This document shows, in pieces, positions 17,146-53,829 of a DNA stretch of 64,000 nucleotides. A model generated the notes under the pieces. That model had not been told where the DNA came from. It was given only the letters and a program-made list of their open reading frames with translations, and did no database searches. The stretch is taken from NCBI GenBank assembly GCA_012295275.1, contig CM022672.1, positions 17,236,001 through 17,300,000 of the forward strand, in the 5' to 3' direction. Source of the stretch: Chrysomallon squamiferum. Taxonomy: Eukaryota; Animalia; Mollusca. Every line of letters begins with the position of its first letter. Positions within the stretch are counted from its first letter, which is position 1. Both the position numbers and the translations under genes were made by a program.

Positions 17146-20100
17146 TACAACTACTATTTTAAATAGGTACATGAAGATTATCCACATTTGGTTGTCACAG
17201 GAACACCAGTTGCTAGAAAAATGGGTTTCCCTGAAGTCATAATGCCAGGTACATTACAATATTCAGTCATAATTTTAGTACATAGTTACATTCTTTCAGT
17301 TAAATAACAAAATCTTAATGCAGCTGTGTTGTTTCTAATTAGCATTACCTTTTATCTTTTACTTGATAATTAATAGTATCGATTCAGATTGTGACATAAG
17401 CAGCTAACCAGAAACTGTGATGAGCAAAGAAAGTTGTGTTAATAACTGAAACATGATGTGTCTGTTTAGAAACATTCTTTGATATAAATTTGTGGCAGAC
17501 ATCATTTTAACTTAGCTTTTCTAATTTAATATCTGTAATAAATTCAGAAATTATTTCATTCCTGCCATTTATGATGTCTGCTGACACTTTATCACCAATG
17601 ATAGATTTTTTATAGTTTCATGATAGTGTTGACTGTAAAATAGTTGTATGCACATATTGCATTACAGGTATATATTATGACTTATCAGTATTTGTTCTTG
17701 ATTTGTACAAAATATTTATTGTTAAAAGTATTGATTCTATTTATATTTGAGTTGCAAATGTTTTACATTCAGTTTGATGGTGTAGAAAACAAATTTGTTT
17801 TAAAAATAGTTTTCTGATTAAATAACTGATTTTCATTTTACAACCTTGTAGTGGAGGGTAAGATGTTAATTAGTGTTCTGTATTGTAAATTAGTAGTACT
17901 ACTTTTCTTCCACACTGTTTATTTCAAAAATATATTATTTTTATTTTTATTTGTTGTGGCTTTTATTTTTATGTATCACTTCATTTTTGTCCCTAGATCA
18001 GATTTTATTTTGGCTTTATTGTTCTGCATTTTTAAATTATTGATTAATTTTTTTTTAAAAAAAAATTCATTAAACTGTTTGTGATTTTCATTCCTCTCTA
18101 CTTAGCACATTTTATCATCATATTGTTGTAAAATTAATGGTGTAGTATTATTACTTGTTTTTGAATAATATTCTAGGGGTGAATCTTTGAATTTGTTTAA
18201 ATGTTTCAATGCTAATTCTTTTTGGAAATAATATTATTTTTGTAATTATTTGTTTCTGTTCCTCTTTGAAAGTAGAAAATAAAACAGGAAAAAATAATAA
18301 CAAAATATTACTGTTGCGTCTATGTAGAAAAATTCAAATATAAACTTGACTCCATTTAGTAATGTTTTGTTTTGATTTCAAAATGTTCACTGTTAAGTTT
18401 TGTTGTCTATAATTTTAATTACTGTCTAATTTTTGCTGCATTTGAAAATAATTATTATTACCATTAAAATGTGAATCAGCAGTACCCAAATAAATTTCTG
18501 TTTTAATGTCATGTTTGTTGTATAAAATCTTTAAAATGAGATCTAGATTACTTTTAATGGTATTATTATTATTATTTACTTACTTATATACATACATATT
18601 TTTTTTTTTTTTTATATAGATGAAAGCATATTAGTATTTTTTACTGAATGAAGTTACTGACTGAAATCAGTTTTTGATGTTAAAATAAGTAGAATATGAT
18701 AGTTCCCAAATTTTATATACTTTATTAATAATTAATTACACTACAGTTTGCAGTATGAAAACAAATGTACTTAAAAGTTTTATATTAACAAGCACTTTAT
18801 TTTATTACTTTATATTTTCATATATAAAATTGTAAGTTTCTTTTTATCGAACAATTATATCATAATATCACATTTTTATTATTGTTATATTTTTTTTATA
18901 TTTATTTTGAAAACAAAATACTTCAAAAATGTTGATTTAAAAAAAAAAAAAAAAAAAAGATTAAAATTGCTTAACAAACTGAAGTAAAAATATAACTGCC
19001 TTGCTTGTTTAGGTGATGTCAGAAATGACATCTATGTCTCACTGATGTACGGAGAGTTTGCTAAAGGCCCAACAAAGACAACAGATAAAAACGTTGAAGT
19101 GTCTATGGTCGTGTGTAACAGCCAAGGAGACGTTCTACCAGTAAAATTTATTATTATTTATTTTTATTATTATTATCAGATTTATTTGCAGAAGCCAGGT
19201 TTTAAAACATTTTAAACAGATACTGAAACAGAAATTAACATCAAGTTTAAACTTTTTGAAAAGCAGATATAATAAGACATTTATTAAACAACTTCTGAAA
19301 TAAATAAATAAATAAATAATTGCTGGAAAAAGAGAATGTTAAATATTTTACATTTTTACAAATGAAACAAAAATGTAGTTATTATTTGGTTACTAAAATA
19401 CTGTTGTTTCTGTATATGCAGACACTAATATGCAAGCACTAATGCATATACAAATGCACACATATGTACAGACAAATACACTCACTGACTTACATAAACA
19501 CATTTAAATTATTTATGTTTTTGTAAACAGAAAGTGATCAGTCATGGCTGTGGGGAATCAATGATGTCTGAGTATAAATCTATGATTTACTATCATGAAG
19601 ACAAACCAAAATGGTATGAGATTGTTAAGGTAAGTAATAATGTCTTTGAAGACATCTTTGTGACTATTTTAAATTCACCACAGATTCAAGAACAACAGCA
19701 ACAACAAAAACAACAATATGCTGAAGAAACAACAAATCCAGATTACTTATATGTTTATTTATTATTGTTTTTGTGACATTATTTGACAAAGAAATATTGG
19801 TCTGAAAGTTAGAAAAATATTAATAACACAGTTTCTGCCAAAATTCGAAGAAGGAAAACACAAACAAAAAATAATATCAGTTTTATGATTTTATCTTGAA
19901 GTCTGAAAACAAATCGGAAATGTTAAACTTCAGAATATAAAGATGTTTGGGAATGTGTTTTCAATATTTTTAGTTTAATATTACTATTCTCATTTAATAT
20001 TAAATTATTTTGTGACAGGTTGCCATCTCAACAGAAGAAGAATTCCGTGGACTGCATCTTAAATTTCTTTTCAAACACAAGTCTTCATCAGAAGGTATTG

Positions 20101-26700: not shown

Positions 26701-29700
26701 ATACCGATCATATTTAACTATATTATACAGGACTGGATAGGCAAAAGAACACAGATTTTGTTTCATTGGAATAATAAGATGTTAATATTGTTGTTATATT
26801 TTATAAAATGAAATAGTAATTTTTTGTTTCTTCTTTCGAATAAATGACAAAGGAATGTTAGATATAGGTGCATTACATTATTAATGTAAATAATACTAAC
26901 TCACTTTTATTACAGTAATTTTATTGTGTAAATTTCTGAGTGAGTCAAAAGATGCTTAATTTTTTTCATGACATTCGACATTTTTTTTTTAAATATCAGG
27001 TTTGCATCCATCAATCTCTGTGTGTGTGTGTTTGAATCTGTCTAACTGCTCATCAGTTAAAGAACAAATATTTTTATTTCTTAAATGTTTGATGTTCAGT
27101 GACACAAATGTTCAGTGTTAATAGCACCATTCTGAATCTGTTCAAAATAATTTTTAAAAACTTTTAATGGACAAAGATTTTTGCTGATGTGGTAGTTGTA
27201 TTTCAGACTGTCGAATGGTGTTGCTGGGTCCCATACTGCAGCACACAATGGTGTTGATGGAGAACAACGAAGAAATGGAAGACTGCATCAATGTCATGAG
27301 TGACATCATGACAACTCTGTGGGCACCAGAAAATGTAAGTTTTTAAGACATTTGGTTTAAATTTTAATTTTTGACATTAAATTTACTTAGATGAAAGATT
27401 GCATCAGTGTCATGAGTGAAGTCATGAGAACTTTGTGGGCACCAGAAAAATCTAAGTTTTAAGAGTGTTAGTTTTAAATATTAATTTTTGACATAAAATT
27501 TACTTAGATTATAATGGTAACACACATACACCTACATATAAAAAGAAGGAATATTTTTTTTTTAATAATTAAAAAAAGAATAATAACAATAATAATTGAA
27601 GCTTTTCCATGCCTTTAGAAAACAATGATTTAAAAAAAAAAATATTGGTCCCCTTAATAATGCTGTAAATCTGATATTTTTCACTGAGTTAAGTAAATGG
27701 AGGGAAAAGAAGAAATTTGAGTCACATTACAATAATTATTACATTCAGATTTACTTTACTGAAAGAAATGTTTTATGTTTGTTATTTCAGAGTTGATTTT
27801 TTCAAATTCTTCTTTTTTTTAATTGATAAATGTTCATCATTTGCAGTTTTCAGTGCTTTAATGCCATTTTCATCTGGAAAAATGTAAATAAAATATCAGA
27901 ATGTTGTTTTGTTTTTAAATATTTTTATGTTTGTGTGCATGTTTGTGTTTTGTTTATATCATGTGCATTGCTAGGTCCTGCATATGTTATTCATGTTCTG
28001 CATTTTATAAAGACATCCAACGCCTGTTATATCTCAGTTTTTTCAAGTGGATGTGTGTTGTATTTCAGGGTCCCATTGAGAGAGATTTACATGTGATCAT
28101 GCAGACTATTCTGAGAACTGTGATACAGTCAGTTATTGGCATGGATCGTAATTCCAAGATTGTGGTATGTAAAACTGACTTCTGTTTAATTGTTTTAACT
28201 CAAAATTGTGTTAATTGATGTTTTAACTCTCACACATGTTGCTCACTATGTATTAATTAATACTATTTTAATTAAACTATGTATTAATTGATATGCTACA
28301 TTTTTGTATACAATAATTTGTGATAATTAAGCAATTATGTTGCATTCTATGCTTATAATAATCTGCTCCATTTAAACTGTTTGTATTAATTTTTCATATT
28401 TTACACAAAACACATATGTTAACTAATTAGCAATATTTAAACAGAGAAACTGATAACATTAATGCAATGCACATTTTAACCCTTTTTTTTCACTATGTTA
28501 TGAAACTGGCCAGAATCCTAAATCATATTTGTTTGCAACAGGATGCTGACCTTAAAATTTTTGCTAGTTAATGTATTGTAGCATAAAGAAAAATTCGGAT
28601 TATAAAATTGGTTTGTTGTACTTTATTTTATTTTGATCCATTAATTTTAAATCTTATTTATTTATATATTTAATCTTATTAATTTTATTACTTTATTTTT
28701 TATAGTATGTTTCTTATTAATACCAGAAATTCAGATTTTATAAAACAATGTATATTAAATAAAAATTTAAAAACTACAAGCAAAAACAAACCAAAATGAA
28801 AATAATTATAAATGTTTTTTCCTGGTTTTTTTTTTTTCTGTCTTTTAAGTGACTTAACTGTAAAAAATAAATAAAATAAAAAAAAGTAAAGTAAAGTAAA
28901 AAAAAATAAAATATAAAAAGTAAAAAAAAATTAAAAAAATAAGAAAAAGATAAAAATAGAATAAAGTTAAATAAAATAAAATAAATATTAATAACTGTTT
29001 TAACCATAAAAAGAAACCATTAATGTTTTGAACTTTTAAGAACTGAAGGAATTATATTTTTTGGTTACACATGTTCCAGTCAATCACAAAACCAGAAAGC
29101 TGTTCCAAGATTGCGGTATGGTATTAAGGGCCAAACAACTTTTAAAAACTAATATAAATATTATACTTATTTAACCTGTAATTAGATACGTATATAAGTG
29201 GTGAAATGGCTTCAGGTCAGTGTATAATACAATAAGGATATAATCAAAATAATGTTGGTGAAAGCACACCTTGGTTATATACAATATAGTTAGATGTATA
29301 TTGAAATAATAACATATAATGTTGGAGGGTTTTTGCATTATAACATATAGTCAAATATTAAACTCTTAGAAAGAGAGTTAAAATGGAGTGTATTTGGATA
29401 TGTATACATATATATATGTATTATTAAAAGGTAACATTTTATAGGGTATGATTTTGTTTGAACAATATATTTATTTTATTTTAATTTATTTTGTTTTGTT
29501 TCTCAAAATATTTTATCATAACAGATTACTTTTTTTTTTATTATTTCCATTTATTTGTTTTATTTTTAACAGGGTGGAAATAAAATGTTATGAAAATGAT
29601 GTAACAGTTTCTTTTTCATGTACATAAATGCATTTATAATTCTTTTTTTCCTTTTTCTTTTTTCTTTTAAACCTACATTTTGGTTATTGGCCCATATATA

Positions 29701-32700
29701 CTATTGTTAATTACTGTAAAATTCAAATCTTTTTTTTTAAAAATGCAGATATTTTCTACATTTTTAAAAGATTCACACAAAACAAAGAAAACAAGAACAA
29801 AAAATAAAAATAGAAAAATCAACAAACCAACAAACAAAACAAAACCCCCCCAACAACCAGCTCATGTTATAGATAGTGACAACTCATTTTTATTAGTTCT
29901 CTAGAATTGTCTAGTTCGCTGAGGTTTGGACATTGGTCTAACATACTAACTACTATTTTTTCTTTTTTCATTTCTTTTTTTTTTTTTTTTTGGTATTACT
30001 AGAATCGGAGATTGGAGGTATTTCTAATAATTAATAGAGAGTGCAAAACATTTTGCAAATGCCTGTGCATTCAGTTTTGTATTGTCATTACCTTAGTTAT
30101 TTCATATGGAATGTTGTACTTTTCCAAGCACATATTTTCTGTCTAGCCCTTGGTGTTCAGTGTTAAAAAAATAAATGTTAAGAATAATTTTTTTTGAAAT
30201 CTGAGGAAAAAATGTATAGTTTCATAATTTTTTTTAAAATATTTGAAATTAATTTCAATTATACAAAATTTATTTTAGAAAATACATTTTATCTATGTAA
30301 TTGTTTGAAACCTTTTTATTTACAGAAATGTTTTATTTTTATAATTACTAATTAATTGAATTATGTATTTTTAAGAATTTTTTTTTCAGCTGTTAATTTT
30401 GTTTTATTTTTTATATTCTTTAATTTTCTTTGTTGCATTTTTAATTTTAATTTTATTTTTAAATAAATACATTAATTATTTTTAATTGTTATGCTGTTTT
30501 GAAGACATAATTTTATTTATTTATTTACTTGCTTACTTCTCAAAGTAATTTTTGCATAAAAATGTTAAAAGAAAATTTTTATTAAATTAATTTAAAATGA
30601 AATATGTAGAAAAACTAGTAAGACCTGCATGTTATACCTACATAATATCTTTCATTACCCCATCATTAAATTAACTAACAAAATCACCTTTTTCTTCTTG
30701 TTTGCAGTTCACTTAAAATTATAAAATGATTTCTTGAATGAAGATGATTTTTTTGTTTTTTTCTGAATTATTTTTCTTATTCTTATTATTGTTTTTAATA
30801 TACTTACTAACATATCACATTCATAATTCAAACAAAATAAACTAGTAATTAATATATCAAACAAATTATGTTTTAAAAACTAATTAAAGTTGCATATTAA
30901 GCTAAATTACTGTTTTGCGGAAACATTCTCAAATTCTGAAATCACAATGAATAAATAAATAAAACAAATACTTACATAATTTATAAATAAATATATAATA
31001 TACAAATTAATCAACTGATTAATAATGATAACACTTATACAAGTATAATGTAAAGAGAAAGAGATAGTGATCAGGAAAATTAATACTAAACACACAGTAA
31101 TAATTCACAACATAAATAAGTAAATAAAAAAAGTTGTTTTAGAATTGCATCCTTTGAAATTTTGAACTTAGCTGAATATTTTATGATTATTAAAATATTA
31201 CAAAATAAAAATAAAAAGCACAGTTTTGTCAAATATTAGTGAATAAAACAGGTGGGAGGACAAATTAATTCAGTATGAATAACTTAATATTAAATAAGTC
31301 CCACTGAATAATTAGAATAATCCTTAGGAAAATTATTTTTGAAAAACACACAGTATCGTTTACATTTCTGTTTATTTACCTTAGTGGTCATTTAAACACC
31401 CATTAATTCTGTGTTGAGTGTTACAAATGTTTTAGTTAATCCTGTTTTTGTGACAGAGAGTGTGAATGTTTAACCTGTTGACATAATAATAGACTTAACT
31501 AATAATAATGTTTGCAAAATGTTTTGTTGTAGAAACTTTAATGCAGCTTTACATACCCACAAAAACCTACATCTACAAACAATAATATTCACAGAAAGAA
31601 ACAAATAAACAAACTAAACAATCGTAAAAAAAACAAAAAAGAAACAAACATGCAGTCATAAACAAACAAATAAATAATGACTGGTAAAAACACATACACA
31701 CATTCAGAAGCAAAGAGCGAAATTCACAGCATGTTCATAACAGACACTTACTAAATATTGAAAAATTGATATATTGTGTATCTAGCTGGGTTCACTCACT
31801 GCCAGGTATTGTTTCAGCTCAGTGACATTGACAGTGAAGGATTCCCACTGCATGTAAGAGAACAGCATGTTGCTCTGCTTGTTCATGCTCATCTCTTTCC
31901 ATATCAGAAACATTGCATCATGATCTGAATCATCCAGCTGTTAGTCAGCCTGTATATACTAACTGTAACCTTTTTCTGGCTTTCCTCAACAATTACTGTT
32001 TCAACAAGTACTGCAGTTTAAGTTGCTCTCCAATTGTAAGGCTTGTTGTTTATATTTATTTAGTGTAACTACGATGTAGGCATTTTTCATTATTATTATT
32101 TTTTTTTTCAATCATTATTGTTAAAGTGTTTATTATTATTTGATTAAAAAATTAAAAAAAATAAAAATAAAATATATTTATATAGTTAACACTAAAGAAT
32201 AACCATTTTCCTTTTTTCTTTTTTAAAAATAATATTTTGGTTTTAATCTTTTTAAATCAAGTTTTTGTTAATTTTATAATATTTTTTTAACAGAATAATT
32301 GCACAGTTTAAATATTGAATTTTTACAATAAAATAAATTATAGTTTTCTTCATTTTATTATTTTTGGTTAAATGTTGACATATTTAAATATATATTAACA
32401 TTTTCTCAGGGATTAAATTGGCATTATAAACTGCAGTATTTGGAAACAACTGTAAACATCTGTTGTCATGAGACCAATATACACTTTCGTCTGAGCACTC
32501 CAGTACTTTGGAATGATCCTTCACATAGAAGTACACACTGTGTTAGAAAAAGTGTTAAAATAACACTTTAATTATTCAAAGTAATTAAAAAGAATTGGGG
32601 GGTAAAAATATTTTTATCATTACTTATACATAACTAAAATATAATATTGGGTGATTTGGAATACTAAAACTGTTTGGAAGGTTGTTTTTTTTTTCTCTAA

Positions 32701-35074
32701 TAAATAATATCATTTTTATAATTTAAAAATTAAAAAAAAAGTCTGATGACTTAAAAATAAAGATTTATAGTAAAATATTTAATGGTTCGCTATCATTTGG
32801 TTTATTCGTTAAATTTTAATATTTAAAATAAAATATTTTTTGTTAATTTCCTTATTTATTTATTTATTTATGTATTTATTTATTTATTTATTTATTTATT
32901 TTAAACTACTCATTTTGAATATATCTGATTGAAAAAATAATTATTTAAAAGTTAAATAAATCAATTTTTAAATATAAAATTGGGTTGTATGTAATAATAT
33001 ATTCCTGTCAACAGCAATTCTTTGGACACCAGCCCCCTCAGGACATTTCTTATAATTGGTTAAATGTAAGTATTTAGACATTGTAATAATTCAAAACTAC
33101 TGTTAAACATTTCAGTAGTAGAGAGTACTCATAAATTGTCATATACTGTAATTAAAAATGACTGTTAAATGTTGAATATTGTGATAGTTGAAAATATTCT
33201 TTAATGACTTGTAGTTCAACATTATCATATTTGAACCAATGCTGTTTAATGATTTCATCGTTGAATTGTCTAATTGTATATGCCTTATTGTCAAAGATAA
33301 ACTGCTGGTAATTGTTGAATGTACGATAGCTAAGCAAATGCTGTTTGATCGTTTACATCACAGCATTTACAACAGGTGTAAATGAATGTTGCAGTTGTTG
33401 AAAAACTGGTGTTGGATGTTGTAAAAGTTGAAATAAGAATTACATTTTTAAATAGTTGTTTGTTACTGAATATTGTAATAACTGAATAGCCACAGATAAT
33501 GGAATTAACTGCCATTGTTAACTGCTTAATGTTAAATGTTGTAAAAGTTGAAAAATAATTTTAATTAAATGCCAAGCTTTGTAATATGTGGTTGAATTGT
33601 TAAATGTTGTATGGACAAATATGTTTTGCTAAATGTTAATTGTTGAACATTTTTCACAGTTGAAAGTATAATTATTAATTATTGATTGGTAACTATCTGT
33701 TGCAAATTTTCAAACATTCTGATAGTTGGACAATATTGTTAATTGTTGAATGTCCTGATAGCTGAAAGTATGTTGTTCATTGTTGAATATCTTCAGTTAA
33801 TTTGTGTTAATATCCAGATTGTCAGACCACTGTTAATTATTTAACCGCTTTACAGTTAACTGTTGAATATCCTGATAGTTGAATGACTGCAGTTAATTGT
33901 TGAAAATCTTCATAGTTGAATGTGTACAGTTGTTAAACATCCTGATAGTTGAATAGAAATTGTTAATTGTTGAACATCGTGATAGCTGAACATATGTTGT
34001 TAATTGTTGAACATGTTATCTACTGTTAATTGTTGAACATGTTGATAGTTTAATATCTGTTGTTAATTGTTGAATATCCTTGTAGTTGAATATCCTAGTA
34101 GTTGAATATCCTGGTTGTTGAATATCCTAGTGGTTGAATATCTATATTTAATTGTTGAACATTAAATTTTAAAATCTTCAAGTGTCAAATACCATGGTGG
34201 TTTCACTACTGATTTAATGCAAAAGTTTTTGGGTGAAAGTATTTAAGGTTTCTGCTGGAAACTTTACTTAAGAATTTAATTAGTCTTGGTTAGTATGATT
34301 ATATTATGTTAATTATATTCATATTTGTCTAATTATTGTACAGTAATTTAAATTACAGGCAATGTTACTTGAGTGTGTAATCAGTTAAAAAAAAATTCAG
34401 AAATTTTAGTAATGTTGCAATAATAATAGAAAAAAATAATAGAAAAAAGAAAAGTAAAAATGTAAATATAAACCAAAAAGTAAAAGCAAAATAAAATCCA
34501 CTGTAATAACAGAAATGTTTTACAGATGTTTCTTAATTATTCTTAAAGAAAATGAATGATCAGATGTAGACCTCTCTCTCTCTCTTCATTATTTCTGGTT
34601 ATATAAGATGAAAAGTAGTCATTTTTCAAAGCTGTATACACCTCTTTTCAATTTCTGCTGTTCTTATATTCAATATATTGTTTTACTTTTATTTGAATTT
34701 AATAAATTATTCAGCTAAAATAAAATGAAAGAAAGAACTTCAGTGGAAATCCAAAATATCTTGTTATTTTCAAAACAGGTATTTTATGTTTTGTTAAGTA
34801 GTTTCATTGTTCATTTAGGTCAAACTGAATCACTATCAAATAAATATAAAGAAGTAAATAATTGTCAAGAAAAAACAAAGATAAATCAAAATATGTATGT
34901 ATAAAATGTTCGAGATTACAAAATTTACAATTTTCTTTTATTTCTATTATTTATTTTCTGATAGAGAAATGATCTTGGTTCAGATTTATTTTCCTTTTCT
35001 GTCAACAGAATCCAGAACACAAATGAATATACAGTTTACTTAGTAAAAAAAAAAAAAAAAAAAAAAAAAAATAT

Positions 35075-35105
<31 letters not shown>

Positions 35106-38100
35106 TCTGTAATGCCTATGAAACTACAAATCATTTCCTCTTGCAGCCTATTGCCATCTTCTGTATTTTCACCATCTGACTTCATACATATAGTGTTCAT
35201 TTGTTTTACAATTTACTTACAATTGTCATCATAATATCATTGCATGAGCTTTAGGCCAGTTTTATTTTTTATCATTTTGTATCTGTTATATGTGTATATA
35301 TTTATTGTTTCGGTTGTTGTGCTCAGTATATATTTAGCCTGTGAGTTTATAGAAGGAAGGTTGTGGCATCATTTGTATTAAAAAAACTTCATTTTTGCGA
35401 TGTTCTCGATTTGATGTTGTGCTACTTTATTTTTATAATTTAGAAATTATTTTACTATCATTTAATTGTTGTTGCTTAAAATGATAAAAGAATTAATCTT
35501 CTGAAAGATTGTTTAAATAATTCATGTGCTTTTAATGCTTTGGAAGTTTTATTTGTTCAGAACTTAATTTCATTGATAAGCAGATACTTTCATTACTTAC
35601 GGCACTTTTCATTATTATTAGTAGTAAAATAGAAAATAATTTTACTAAAATATTACATATTTATTTATTTGATATAATATGTAATAAGAAAATACCATGC
35701 CATGCAAATAATACAACTTCTCATCCATTATTTAAATCTGAAACATCTCAGTAACATTTCTAACAATATGTAATTTTTACTGTTACATATAATGGCATAT
35801 TTTCTAATTTAGTTAAGTATGCTATTAATATTTAATTTCAGTCTTATGATATTCTGACTTTTTATTACATATATTTTAGTAAATATATGCTTAAAATTTT
35901 AATAAATATTCCTTGTTGCTAAATGATGAAATGACAGAACTTTAGATTTTGTTTTAGGGGGAGAAAAAAAGAAAGAAAGAAAAAAATTATTTTTTACAAG
36001 ATTTTGGTATTCATTCATTGGTAATTTATACATTTTCAAATAAATAAATAATATATATTATCTGGAAGGTGATACCAAATATATTTTTTTGGGGAAAAAA
36101 AAAAATCAAAATTACAGTTATTAAAAAGTTATGCTCAGTTTTATTGTATTTGAAAATTTTGATTCAAAAAAACTATCAGCAGCTAGTTTTGACAGCAGTA
36201 TCATTTATTTTTCACATTTAAATTAAAATCTTAAAACATTTCAAAAGAATGTTAATGTCAAAATAATATTTTAAAAATTTAGTTTTGAAAATCCTAATTG
36301 ATATTACTCTGACATCTGCACACAGGGCAACTGTGTTGCAGTGATGATGAGCATTCTGCGACAAATGACTGAAAACCACTACATCAGCTACATCAACAAC
36401 TTCACAACAAACTATGACGTTCTTGATTTTCTCATGGAGATAATTCTTGTGTTCCGAGATCTTATCAACCGTAATGTTTATCCTGAAGACTGGGTGGAGA
36501 TGATTTTACTGCAGAACAGGTTAAATTTAAATTCAAAAATTATTATTTGTTTATATTTTTAAGTAAAAAGATTGTGTGGAAATGATTTTTGAAGCAGAAC
36601 TTGTTAAATTTAAATTTTGTAATGTTTTATTCATTAATATTTTTGAATTAGAAGCTACGTACATAACTTTGGCCATACTATTTACTATATTATTATACTT
36701 TATTATTAAAAAATTGCTGAAGGCAAACATAAGAAATATATTTCTTTGGCCATGTTTTTTTATTCTCGTTTTTTATTCTCGTACTTTTTTTTTATTCAAA
36801 AATATTACTTACACTAACAAATGAAACATTAGCTTTGACTAGCTTTTACTAAATATATTTAGGTTATTTTTAGCATTATAACAGGTACATTTTATATAAG
36901 GCTATTGTTTTCACTAATTTATTTACTATTTATTTTAATGATTTTATCAGTATTTATTTAATTTGAATTTTTTTTTATTTTCCAGTATTATTTTGAGAGC
37001 TATGAGATTTTTTGCCATCACCATTCATGAGAAATTCTCAAATCCATTTGAGCAACAGGTTCATTTTTATGTCAATTTATTATTTTATTTATTTATTTGT
37101 TTGTTTGTTTATTATATAAAAGAAATAAGAAAAATACAACTAAAAACTAAACACTCAAAAAAAAAACAAATTAAGCATTATTATAATGAAAAATATGTAA
37201 TGATATTTTTTCATTGCTTACTTTATAAATAACATTAACAAATAAAACAATTTTCTTTTATGAAATTCCCATGTGTTTGATTTTTCTCATTTCTTCATTT
37301 GTATAATTACACAGAAACCATTCTTTAATCATTGTTTATTTTGTTATTTATTTATTATATTATTTTACTTTATATTACTTTACTTTACTTTAATTCACAT
37401 TTTTGTTAAATTTTATTTTTACTTCATTTTTAAATTTTTATTATATGTGTATATATATATATATATATTATTATTATTTTTTTTTAATTCACTTCATGTT
37501 GTAATTTTCATTTTTTATTTCAGTTGTGGAACAATTTTTTCCATTGTGCTATATCATTCCTCACACAAGATTCGTTACAACTGGAACATTTTTCAGCAGC
37601 AAAACGAGAAAAAATTGTTTCCAGGTAACTTTATAAACTTTCTTCACATAAAAAACCCAAAATTTCAGGTGTCATTCATAAATAATTCATATAATTTACA
37701 TTTATTTTTATAGCAAAATTATTATATTGTTATTGATATTTTGTGTTCTGATATGATTATTATTTATTATTTTGCAGATACAAAGATATGAGAAGAGAAA
37801 CTGGTTTTGAGATTCGCTCAATGTGGTTTAAATTGGGTTTGTTTATGCTATGGAATAAATCTCTATAATCTGTTTTATAAATAAATAAAAACATTAAAAT
37901 ATAGTACATTATGTCAATATCATCAGTTGTTATTAATTAATTAAAATATTAATATACTTAGTACTTGAAAAAAATGCTTTTTTTTACTGTAGACTAAAAT
38001 GAACATTGTTTACTTTTTAAATTTTACATTAATACTTTATTTTTATAAGCTACGATACAAATGGAAATAAACATATCAGGTTTCATTATTTCTGAAATTC

Positions 38101-46108: not shown

Positions 46109-46728
46109 TGGGTGTGCGTGTGGGTGTGTTTATCAGTTTAATTTTCAATTCAGACAAAATCGAATTATATGTGGATGACCAAAAAAATAATGTTTAATAG
46201 TTTTGTAATAACAGAAAATTACTCATTAAAATATTTAAAATAGTTATGATAATGATGATGATAAATAGTGATTTTGTCTATCAGTGTTATTATTGTACAT
46301 TATTTTTATTATCTTTTTTTTGGCAGTATTTTTTAAGATAATTATGTTTGTGAATATGTTTTATTCTTTTTCATAATAAAATTTGCAAATATATTTGTTC
46401 TTATTATTCTAGCTGCATGTTTTTCATGTATCTGAGAGAGGATATAAAACTTCGTCTTTAAAAAATCCCACATATCAGCGCCTTGTTGAGTCCAGTGTAA
46501 AAATTAAATTTTATTAACATGGTGGAATTTTAATTTTTTTTTTTATAAAAATATTTTGGGTTTGATTTTTTTTTTTTTTTTCAATTATTTTAAATTTAAT
46601 AACTTTTATGGTGTTGGGAATATATGTTGATTTATATTTCTGTAATAAATAATATAAGCTAAGTTTTATTTAATAATATTTTTAGTATATTTATGATATC
46701 TGTACATATGTATGTGTTTGTGTGTCTC

Positions 46729-46812
<84 letters not shown>

Positions 46813-49800
46813 TGTACGTGTGTATTTCTATGTACATAAGGTACATTATGATGTGTATTTCCCCTAATATCTTACTGATCATGTTGTTGAGCAGTAACTT
46901 ATTATTTATATATTATGGCGTTAGCGAGTGCTCCTGAAATAATATTTTATTAATTTATTTTATTGTATTATGAAATAAAACTTTAAGATAATATTTTATA
47001 ATATTAATTAACAATTTATTTTATCAATTCATATTATTTTTTTTTTTATTTTTTTTTTTTTTAATATATTTTAAAACATACATAGAAGGTTTGATGAAAA
47101 GTTAATATCAGTAAATACATTAGTGCACATTAGTGCAATAAGGATTTTCACTGGTGTTACAAAAAGTTGTGTTAAAAGAATTTTATTTTATTTATATGGT
47201 GTCAGTTTTTCAATTTTTAAAAGACTTTATGCTTTTATTTTTCCTGAGGGAAAATGGTTTTGCTTGTTTTGTTGTTGTTGTTGTTGTTTTTTTTTATATG
47301 CACCTTACCATTATTTTATTTTTAAAAATTAAAGTACAATTCAACGAAAAAAGCAGTATAAAACCTGAATTCTAATAGGAATTTTAAAAAAAATATATAT
47401 TTTTTTCCATTTATCTGTAATTATTATAATTTTTAAAATAATTATATATGTGTTTTTTTTTTTTTTTTTCTCAGTTTTTATGTTTTACTTGTATACTTGA
47501 AAATATTTATAATTTAATCTTCACAGATATATTAACTGTATGTCATAATATTTTTTTCATTTACCTAAATAAATACAGAATAAATAAAATAAAGCTAAAA
47601 AACTAAATTAAGAAATAATAATTTAAATATAATAACAAATAAAACTACTTTGTATATAATAAAAAACATATAAAAGTTATATTCAAGTAATTTGATTTTA
47701 TAGTATCTAGTTTACATTATTTTCTCATTATTTTAATTACTTTCAAATTACTGTTCAAAAAAAAAAGAGAGAAAATGTTTGTTAAAATTTCATCACTCTT
47801 TTTATTTAAAGATGCAATTAATACAAATGAAAGTGATTCTTAATTACAGTGGTGTCTTATATGTGAATTAAAAAGTGGTCAAATACAATTTATTTATTTA
47901 TTTTTTATTTTTTTTTTTTTTTTCATACCTGATGATGATTTTAATCAAAATAAACAATTTTACTTCAGGTGGCAGCCAAAGGAGCACCTAATGGAGGATT
48001 ATCACTGAGGCGGAACCATTCCATGCCAGTCACGCCTGAACGACACAGTGAACTGAACCTCACAAGTCCTAGTACATTTTCTGAGTATGATATTTTTACT
48101 TTTTTATTTTTTTAAATAACACAAACAATAACTGTTTTGCAAGTTGCTGTACTAATTCATTTGTACTAATCTTATACTGGAAACCAAAAACATCCAACTG
48201 TTTGAATCCTTTTTTGTTTAAGGTTTAATAATTTTTAAGAGTAATATATATATGTATATATATTTTTTATTTTTGTTTAGTCAGAATATGCTTGAATACA
48301 TTAATAATGTTTTATAATGTGTACCAGTTCTTCTAACAAAATACAAGTCAGTTTTCAAAAGTGGAGAAATATATCACTGCATGTAAATATTATTAATATG
48401 TTTGATGTCTGTTGGATGTTTTATTTATTACTGCTGCTAGTACCAGAAGGATTAAATATAAAAGGTAAATTCTAACTTGAATCAGAATGAACTTACTGTT
48501 GTAAACAGTATACTTATTTTATTGCATACTTTTCTTGATGTTAATATTGGATGTTGTCCTTAGTACTAGATATTGTTAAGCATTCATTTGTGTGTTGTCT
48601 GTTTCACTGTTTTTTCATCCATCTGTCTGTTTAATTAGCTTAGACGCCAACATTTAAATATAATGAAATTAGATATTTTTAAAATTTTAGTTTGTCATGA
48701 TCTTTGTTTCTGTCTACCTGTTTGTTTGTTTTATAAATTAATGGAAATTTCTGTATTTTCATATTTAGTGGATGAAAATACTTTCAGGTTTATTGTATGA
48801 GTTTTGTTCTGTTATTATTTTGAAGTAATTATTGGTATAAATTAATTCACCCTTTTTTGTAACTGTATAAATAAACCCATTTAGTGTTACAGCACTGTGG
48901 TCTTTTTTTTCCCCTTCTTCTTTTTTTTATTATTATTGTTGTTGTTGTTGTTAAACTTTTTTTGCTTGTTATTATTTTTTGTTTTTAAAATAAGAGCAAA
49001 CTAAAGATTTGGTAGTTTGAATCATTTCTTATCACTGATTATATAGTTACCAGATACGAAGAAAGAAAACTTAAATTTAAAATTTAAAGATTATTATTCC
49101 AGCATCTCTTTTGAAATGTTCACAGAAACACTTTCAGAAATTTCATACAAACATTCTTGCAACGTGATGGTCATTTTAAAATTATTTAGTTATTAAAGTA
49201 TTTTTTATTAATTTAATTTAATTTAATTTTATTTTATTTTATTTTATTTTATTTTATTTTATTTTATTTTAATTTAATTTAATTTTTTATTTATTTTTTA
49301 TTTATTTTGTTTTATTTTGTATTAATATAATTTAATTTATTTTAATTTTAATTTTTTAATTTATTTTATTTTATTTTATTTTATTTTAATTTATAATTTT
49401 TTTTAATTTTAATTTTTTTTTTTTATTATTATTATTTTTTTTTTATTCTGTTCTATTCTTTTATTTTATTTTATTTTATTTTAATCCCAGGTTAAACTAT
49501 GCCACCACTCCATCAAAGAGCAGTACGGTTGCGGGCAGGTCGCAGTCTGTGTGGGTGAAAGCAGACAAGGTCAGTTCCTCCCCCAGCAAATCAAGTCTTC
49601 AGTACAAAATGGGCAACATCGTAAAGCGGGTGTCCCAAGTGGGGGATCAGTTCTCCAGCTCAAGCCAGCAGCGCAACTCCCTTGAACAACCCATTGAGTT
49701 AAATGAGCAGGCATGTAGTGGTCCCTTAGTGGCTTCTTTTTAATTTCCAGTGCAGTTCCTGAAAGTTCTCATACAGATGTTTAACAATCATAACAGTCAT

Positions 49801-52470: not shown

Positions 52471-53829
52471 TTAAAGTAGTTATTAATTATGTCCTTTTGT
52501 ATTTGTTTATGTATGTTTAAATTATTTCTATCCCACATACAGGATGTAAAATGCTAAAAAAGAATACAAAATCTGTAATTAGGTTCAAAAATTAGATTCA
52601 CTTTTAATAATAAGCTGACAGCTAAAATTTTCCAAGAATTTTTTTTACCCCTGTTATAATAATTATATATATAAATATGAATGTGTAATATATATATAGT
52701 AACAAAATATTAATTATTAAATAAGTAAATATTCATAAAATAAGATTAGCAAAAAACATATAATGTTACCATGAAAGAAAAATATAAATTGAGTAAATTT
52801 TCTTTTTAAATTACCATTCTAGTTTTAAAAAAATTAATACACATTCATATTTATATGTAATAAAATTAGTAATCAGTAAAAAAATGTTGTAACTGATGCT
52901 TAGAAATTATGGGATGGGTTTTACTGTAATTCTTTTTTGGAAATTTTATATTATTTATTTATTATTTTTGTTTTCAAAATGTTTCTCAGAAAAAGACTAA
53001 AACTACTTACTAAACAACAAACTGCTTCCCATCACATCTTGTTCAGTGGAAATTTATTTCACTATCACTTCTTTTTGTTAGCATGGTTTTTAATTTCAAT
53101 TTATTATTAATTTTTGTTAAAAATTAAAAATTAAAAAAAGAAAAAAAAAGCACACACTAAAAAGAGAAGTTTTTGGTTCAGTTATATTTATTTGCTTTTG
53201 CTTTTGGCACTTTTGGGGTTCTGGAAAGTGAAATGGGGAAGAAAACCCCAAAAACATTAATCGTGTGTTTGAATATATGAATAACCCTATCATAATATTG
53301 TAGAAAACATCCAAATTCTACACTGTTCTAACACAAGGGGTAAGTTTCTTTTTAAATTGTCTTTAACATTATTTTATAAAATACTTATATTAGGTTGCTT
53401 GTTTGTTTTGTCTTTTTTTTTTTTCACATAATTTGTACATCACAAAAAAACACGTGTCTTCTGTTTAAAAGTGCTCATAATAACCAGAGCTAACTAATGT
53501 CTCTACTAATAACTAGTTTATTTATAACCATTGTGACAATCTCTGTCAGTAGAAACTAAATAATTACAGGAACTAATAAGATATATCTTTATTTTAAAAG
53601 AGAGTTTATGTTAGAACATACTTCCATAAGTGATTACTGTATAGTAATTTTTCTTTTTTTTCTGAATATTATTTAATCATTTATTTATTTTTTTATTTAT
53701 ATTAATTTTTTTTTTTTTTAGATACTGATATATATATATATATACTTGTTTTAATTAAATGAATTAATTGATTTGTATTTATCTTGGATTACTTAATGGA
53801 TTTTCTTTATTTTTCTTTAAACAGTATGA

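What the first reader, a model, noticed from the sequence alone, without database searches (positions are those of the whole stretch)
28165..36325. Array of frame-preserving cassette/micro-exon candidates in the largest DOCK intron
Seen in sequence: this phase-0, 8.2-kb intron contains at least five GC-elevated islands. Each is an AG...GT segment of 3n length with no stop in the DOCK frame: 29080-29115 (36 nt), 30003-30017 (15 nt, TACTAAC branch), 31818-31853 (36 nt), 32410-32451 (42 nt) and 33015-33065 (51 nt, GTAAGT). Weaker ones lie at 30147-30176 and 35338-35340. All would insert at one point, between ...MDRNSKIV and GNCVAVM..., in the ARM-like region between DHR-1 and DHR-2. Inference: a combinatorial peptide-insertion module that could generate many DOCK isoforms. 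I know of no such array described for DOCK1/2/5/mbc. Caveat: some 3n AG-GT segments arise by chance in 8 kb.
Basis: partly seen in the sequence, partly recalled or inferred. Interest (0 to 1): 0.8.

Follow-up and report, generated by a model that had tools for sequence, protein, structure and literature searches.

The report
Short-exon switch in snail DOCK1
The longest intron of a snail's DOCK1-type Rac activator holds four short exons (one seen spliced in this animal's RNA, all four matching inserts in other snails' protein records) that likely let cells swap different small peptides into one predicted surface loop of the protein.

Summary
Mostly real, but not freely combinatorial. The gene is a gastropod DOCK1/2/5 (mbc-type) Rac GEF. 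Four of the five strong candidates are exons. A (29080-29115), B (31818-31853) and C (33015-33065) match inserts at the same junction in Gigantopelta RefSeq isoforms (11/12, 11/12, 17/17 residues). The 15-nt NRRLE exon (N) matches inserts in ten other gastropod genera. B is spliced at exactly these bounds in RNA contigs of this organism (one study). Candidate 32410-32451 and the two weak ones have no support; two RNA runs carry an extra base that breaks 32410-32451's frame. Among 81 gastropod protein records, 60 carry a first-position exon and none carries two, while C is optional. The likely layout is one of A/N/B or none, plus or minus C: about 8 forms, not 32 or more. The inserts fall in a low-confidence loop between two armadillo-like helices, away from the catalytic domain, so they likely retune a binding surface. 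Exclusivity rests on automated gene models, and function is inferred. The isoforms are already in automated annotations; none of my eight literature searches listed a paper describing them.

The parts
28069..28164 (+). Upstream constitutive exon of the DOCK1/2/5-type gene; ends in phase 0
   Evidence: Spliced alignment to the Gigantopelta protein; its 3' end is the loose end before exon B in RNA contigs
29080..29115 (+). Exon A, 36 nt, [12 protein letters not shown]; first-position choice
   Evidence: 11 of 12 residues match the insert in 8 of 12 Gigantopelta isoforms; site score rank 2 of 181; only unspliced contigs cover it in the RNA runs laid
29944..29950 (+). TACTAAC, likely branch point of exon N, followed by a long pyrimidine tract
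   Evidence: Sequence; role inferred
30003..30017 (+). Micro-exon N, 15 nt, NRRLE; first-position choice and the most widely shared
   Evidence: Matches inserts in Haliotis, Babylonia, Littorina, Nucella, Pomacea, Aplysia, Physella, Lymnaea, Biomphalaria, Bradybaena; score 22 against at most 16 in 300 shuffles; absent from all 12 Gigantopelta models; not shown in RNA here
31818..31853 (+). Exon B, 36 nt, [12 protein letters not shown] (acidic); first-position choice, expressed
   Evidence: RNA contigs of X1 and X2 lie on it and run into the two flanking constitutive exons; X4 has a contig piece of just this exon; 11 of 12 residues match 2 of 12 Gigantopelta isoforms; rank 1 of 181
33015..33065 (+). 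Exon C, 51 nt, [17 protein letters not shown]; optional second-position cassette
   Evidence: 17 of 17 residues match 9 of 12 Gigantopelta isoforms; related inserts in 12 of 16 gastropod genera seen; outside the stretch on which RNA was laid
36326..36519 (+). Downstream constitutive exon, starts GNCVAVM
   Evidence: 94% identical to Gigantopelta DOCK1-like; its start is the loose end behind exon B in RNA contigs
32410..32451 (+).
   Evidence: Donor 2.8 bits against 6.2 for the 10th percentile of true donors; no match in relatives; unspliced contigs of X2 and X4 run through it and both carry one extra base at its 5' edge, which makes it 43 nt with a stop in frame

Best explanation
This intron holds four short alternative exons of a snail DOCK1/2/5-type Rac activator (B shown spliced in RNA, A, N and C inferred from matching inserts in relatives) that likely work as a two-position switch: at most one of A, N or B, then optionally C, is spliced in, likely by cell type, and adds 5-29 residues to one predicted surface loop. 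All four are phase 0 and 3n, so every choice keeps the frame (shown). The loop lies between two helices of the armadillo-like scaffold, at about human DOCK5 residue 950, outside the DHR-2 catalytic domain (alignment shown, fold predicted). N and A are basic, B is acidic and C carries a conserved FGxQPP core, so the choice likely changes which partner, phosphorylation site or membrane surface the scaffold offers, not the exchange chemistry (inferred). Exclusion among A, N and B is likely set by cell-type splicing factors that switch on one exon at a time, since frame and spacing cannot enforce it and no pairing RNA arms were found (inferred).
For: Gigantopelta isoforms: A+C 8, B+C 1, B alone 1, none 2, A+B 0 of 12. 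Across 81 of 83 gastropod records with the junction: 60 carry a first-position exon, none two; C-type occurs with and without them. Five genera have two or more first-position types on record, never joined. Each of the four matches exceeds all 300 shuffled introns. RNA contigs give upstream exon-B-downstream exon at exact bounds; one X2 contig carries all three parts. AlphaFold2 on the Gigantopelta A+C stretch: insert region pLDDT 49-59 by 10-residue block, flanking blocks 96-98 except the block just before (67); the model matches DOCK5 chains best (TM 0.82-0.86). Gaps between the exons are 887, 1800 and 1161 nt.
Against: The relatives' isoforms are automated gene models, many sharing one arrangement, so 60 records are far fewer independent observations; only 15 of 33 Haliotis and 15 of 19 Littorina members were listed. 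A, N and C were not seen spliced in this organism: A is covered only by unspliced contigs, N is too short to be laid, C lay outside the stretch. N is in none of the 12 Gigantopelta models. The three RNA runs come from one study, their tissue is unknown, and 164 loose ends and 300 pieces were not shown. No splicing-factor motif was enriched near any exon. No tissue pattern and no function was tested.
Confidence: 0.7

Rival explanations
1. The four exons are independent cassettes that combine freely (16 forms); A+B, A+N or N+B forms are merely too rare to have entered the automated gene models.
For: Nothing structural forbids joint inclusion: all are 3n, 0.9-1.8 kb apart and no pairing arms were found. 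The records are predictions and some clusters were listed only in part.
Against: 0 of 60 records with a first-position exon carry two, across five genera that have two or more types, while joins to C are common.
Confidence: 0.15
2. The exons are real but the loop merely tolerates insertions; exons come and go here and the peptides do little (neutral exon turnover at a permissive loop).
For: A and B matched nothing outside Gigantopelta; other snails have other first-position exons not found in this intron; mussels, scallops, clams, a nemertean and a beetle have unrelated inserts at the same site; limpet, chiton and octopus records have none.
Against: N-type and C-type cores are kept across 10 and 12 genera spanning the main gastropod lineages, C is 17 of 17 identical to Gigantopelta, and the two-position order is kept.
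Confidence: 0.12
3. Only B is a working exon in this organism; A, N and C are relics or chance AG..GT segments.
For: Only B was seen spliced here; the count of strong 3n stop-free segments is near chance.
Against: A, N and C keep open frames, intact sites (donors 8.1-10.2 bits) and near-identical peptides to relatives' inserts, far beyond shuffles.
Confidence: 0.03

Closest known systems
DOCK-A subfamily Rac GEFs (human DOCK1/2/5, Drosophila myoblast city)
   Same: Full-length match to DOCK5 and DOCK2 chains; the insertion point aligns to about DOCK5 residue 950, inside the ARM region (residues 628-1215, PMC8294757, passages read).
   Different: 115 of 118 newly listed mostly vertebrate DOCK1 representatives have no insert here, 2 starfish differ by two residues, 1 did not align (the ranking favours insert-free hits); the DOCK5 chain has none.
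Neural micro-exons of GTPase regulators (3-27 nt, Srrm3/4 or eMIC-driven; e.g. dock7, vav2, cytohesin-1)
   Same: N is 15 nt, frame-keeping, conserved, in a GTPase regulator, in a predicted surface loop. PMC12626424 (passages) lists GTPase activity and dock7 among such genes; PMC6314551 (listing and abstract start) shows a micro-exon changing lipid binding of a GEF.
   Different: A, B and C are 36-51 nt; no TGC lies within 30 nt upstream of N (motif recalled); tissue unknown; here several exons compete for one position.
Mutually exclusive exon clusters of tandem duplicates (Dscam type; PMC9741552 passages, PMC6800468 listing)
   Same: One-of-several choice at a fixed position; A and B have equal length.
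   Different: The exons are not detectably alike in DNA (20-116 of 200 shuffles reach each pair's score), skipping all of them is allowed, and no docking/selector-like arms were found.
Mini-exon codes of LAR-type phosphatases (PTPdelta meA/meB; PMC12075705, listing and abstract start)
   Same: Small peptide inserts from short exons at fixed sites that set binding partners.
   Different: Those are extracellular adhesion surfaces with shown partners; this is an intracellular scaffold loop with no partner known.

Membership tests
DOCK-A Rac GEF (DOCK1/2/5/mbc) | SH3, C2, DHR-1, ARM and DHR-2 in one chain, closest to DOCK1/2/5 | tested here: met
   Window exons cover the whole Gigantopelta protein, which matches DOCK5 over residues 9-1620 and DOCK2
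Alternative cassette/micro-exon cluster | Exon spliced at the predicted bounds in RNA | tested here: met
   Met for B only; A, N and C rest on relatives' records
Alternative cassette/micro-exon cluster | Both included and skipped forms exist | tested here: met
   Included and skipped forms in Gigantopelta, Haliotis, Babylonia, Littorina, Physella, Biomphalaria, Bradybaena records; in this organism B-containing contigs skip A, N and C
Mutually exclusive exons | Never two in one transcript | tested here: inconclusive
   0 of 60 records, but these are automated models, not molecules
Mutually exclusive exons | Exactly one is always included | tested here: not met
   21 of 81 gastropod records have no first-position exon
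Dscam-type tandem-duplicate cluster | Variable exons are paralogous | tested here: not met
   No pair exceeds shuffles
Dscam-type tandem-duplicate cluster | Competing docking-selector RNA pairing | tested here: inconclusive
   Only 2 perfect inverted matches of 11 nt or more with GC 30% or more, neither beside A, N or B; no orthologous intron DNA was available for covariation
Srrm3/4 (eMIC) neural micro-exons | Length 3-27 nt | tested here: met
   N only, 15 nt
Srrm3/4 (eMIC) neural micro-exons | Neuron-specific inclusion that depends on the factor | not testable with these tools
   No tissue-labelled reads; no TGC within 30 nt upstream of N

The most novel reading that the evidence does not exclude
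Gastropods have kept since their early radiation a two-position peptide code on the DOCK1 scaffold in which unrelated exons kilobases apart exclude each other by a mechanism that is neither frame, steric nor duplicate-exon RNA docking, and in which a basic-versus-acidic swap in one ARM loop sets where or with whom the Rac GEF works: the first regulatory surface assigned to this part of the DOCK ARM region.
Probability: 0.2. Interest if true: 0.7.

Novelty: new variant of a known kind. Interest (0 to 1): 0.45.

Why it matters
The DOCK ARM region is described mainly as a scaffold (PMC8294757, PMC8063744, passages read). A loop that snails have diversified by splicing, with two peptides kept across most gastropod lineages, points to a regulatory surface that can be tested by grafting the peptides into DOCK5 or mbc. 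It is also a compact case of non-paralogous exons that appear to exclude each other, in a phylum whose micro-exon programs are little studied. It does not overturn anything: short alternative exons in GTPase regulators are common, and these isoforms already sit in automated annotations.

Tried and rejected
No whole genome is held for this window, and no orthologous intron DNA could be fetched, so splice-site conservation was judged from protein records only. Counting strong 3n stop-free AG..GT segments against shuffles did not separate signal from chance. No DNA likeness among the exons and no long-range pairing near them. YCAY, YGCY, GCATG and ACTAAY (motifs recalled) are not enriched within 150 nt of any exon: the best cases were reached by 61-67 of 1000 shuffles. 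No Rfam family in the intron. The other first-position exon types of Haliotis, Babylonia, Littorina and Aplysia, and Littorina's third-position exon, have no counterpart among 286 candidate segments here (best scores 6 or less); a likeness of B to the acidic Haliotis exon scored -4 and is not claimed. No spliced contig was shown on A or on 32410-32451, but contigs show presence, not absence. A single X4 contig changes the acceptor G of the weak candidate at 30146, but has 6 differences in 182 letters and may be another copy. RNA was laid on 29000-32825 only, so inclusion of C and the direct skip junction remain untested in this organism. Earlier findings of the scan: nothing returned. The scallop insert RRTE resembles N but is too short to test.

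Full report
Gene and observation. The window holds a complete DOCK1/2/5-type gene on the + strand; the exon after the intron is 94% identical to Gigantopelta aegis DOCK1-like, so the organism is likely a closely related gastropod. Spliced alignment placed 55 introns; 28165-36325 is the 29th and the longest. That alone means little: 181 of 1030 short AG..GT segments qualify, and the number with good sites (9) is what shuffles give (7.0 and 7.2; 28 of 100 reach it). Only a GC and length filter chosen afterwards shows an excess (5 against 1.0 and 1.5; 1 of 100). The site matrix was trained on 48 of the 55 introns. By summed site score B ranks 1, A 2, C 4, N 7, 35338-35340 8, 32410-32451 9 and 30147-30176 152 of 181.

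Relatives settle which are exons. The 12 Gigantopelta RefSeq isoforms differ exactly at this junction: A+C in 8, B+C in 1, B alone in 1, nothing in 2; identities to the window are 11/12, 11/12 and 17/17 residues. The 15-nt exon N is in none of them, but NRRLE-like inserts stand at the same junction in ten other gastropod genera, and C-like inserts in twelve of the sixteen genera seen; Patella, Lottia, Elysia and Candidula records have none. In 300 shuffled introns the best match to each relative's peptide never reached the real one (N 22 against at most 16, A 59 against 22, B 60 against 13, C 70 against 19). The fifth strong candidate and the two weak ones match nothing.

RNA of this organism. 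Five runs hold the gene, four on record as RNA and from one study. Laid on 29000-32825, contigs of X1 and X2 cover 31817-31854 only and continue, before, into the end of the upstream exon and, behind, into the start of the downstream exon; one X2 contig carries all three parts (29 letters on the upstream side), and X4 has a 38-letter piece of just this exon. Over 32410-32451 the contigs of X2 and X4 run unspliced and both carry an extra base at its 5' edge (depths 3.8 and 5.6), which would make it 43 nt with a stop.

Layout. Of 83 gastropod records, 81 have the junction: 60 carry one first-position exon (A, N, B, or two further types found only in other snails), none carries two, 16 carry nothing and 5 carry only C-type or later exons. 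Gigantopelta, Haliotis, Babylonia, Littorina and Aplysia each have two or more first-position types on record, never joined, while joins to C are common. These are automated models, not independent molecules, and some clusters were listed in part (15 of 33 Haliotis, 15 of 19 Littorina). Longer N-type inserts in some genera could be one longer exon or two micro-exons. For this window the likely repertoire is four first-position states times two, about 8 forms. Frame cannot enforce the exclusion (all 3n), nor spacing (887 and 1800 nt); the exons are not alike in DNA and no pairing arms lie beside them; no motif enrichment was found. Cell-type control by splicing factors is the remaining simple explanation and is inferred.

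Protein. The junction aligns to positions 956/957 of the DOCK5 chain of 7DPA, about residue 950 if the chain's six extra residues are N-terminal, within the ARM region 628-1215 whose concave face holds the N-terminal helical region (PMC8294757, passages). An AlphaFold2 model of a 385-residue Gigantopelta stretch with A+C (79-row alignment) has mean pLDDT 90.9; the insert (model residues 171-199) lies between helices 142-162 and 197-212 with block means of 49-59, and the model matches DOCK5 chains best. Which face the loop is on I could not determine. N and A each have two basic residues and one acidic, B three acidic and no K or R. Acidic-lipid binding is known to drive opening of DOCK5-ELMO1 through basic residues of ELMO (PMC12615776, passages); a like role for this loop is only a guess. 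The best-supported reading is a splice-controlled binding surface on the scaffold, with catalysis unchanged.

Beyond gastropods. Chiton (6 of 6) and octopod (12 of 12) records have no insert; nor do amphioxus (15 of 15), horseshoe crab (6 of 7, one without the junction) or Pacific oyster (15 of 15). Mussels (8 of 15), scallops (10 of 15), two clams, a nemertean (3 of 3) and one beetle (2 of 6) have different inserts at or beside the same site. Of 118 further, mostly vertebrate, representatives 115 have none (biased towards insert-free hits). The loop is thus a repeated site of exon gain, with a gastropod-wide core of N and C.

Literature. Eight searches listed no paper whose title or abstract start describes alternative exons at this site in DOCK1/2/5 or mbc; in four of them only 20 of 25-31 hits, or 13 of 14, were listed. 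I read term passages of PMC8294757, PMC12615776, PMC11267001, PMC9741552, PMC12626424 and PMC8063744; a term search of 10.1101/2021.02.24.432780 found no mention of dock or mbc in the main text. PMC6314551, PMC12075705, PMC6800468 and PMC12074976 were seen as listings only. No supplements were read; micro-exon catalogues in them could list DOCK events. The library lacks most subscription papers. Clade names and splicing motifs are recalled.

Verdict. A real, conserved short-exon cluster; four of five strong candidates hold; likely one-of-three plus optional, not a free combination. New variant of a known kind, interest 0.45.

Noticed in passing
window 17852-17857: A 6-nt micro-exon candidate with a GTAAGA donor that adds Val-Glu just before the DHR-1 domain; 5 listed Haliotis records have the same two residues there, 10 of 12 Gigantopelta isoforms Val-Asn, and Physella, Aplysia and Pacific oyster records 3-4 residue inserts.
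   Followed up: partly
window 27275-27508: Tandem duplication of about 117 nt covering the 3' half of a coding exon and the start of its intron; the second copy (from 27391) follows an AG and keeps an open frame but has lost the GT donor.
   Followed up: partly
window 46431-46484, 49489-49710, 53304-53340: Further exons matching segments that vary among the Gigantopelta isoforms, in the C-terminal tail; the gene has at least five alternatively spliced sites in that relative.
   Followed up: no
window 33854-34142: Degenerate tandem array (periods 16, 33, 37) inside the intron, downstream of exon C.
   Followed up: no
window 31760-32060: Exon B has GC-richer flanks (40% over plus or minus 100 nt against 23% for the intron) and a second TACTAAC at 31957; possibly a conserved regulatory island, but no motif was significantly enriched.
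   Followed up: partly
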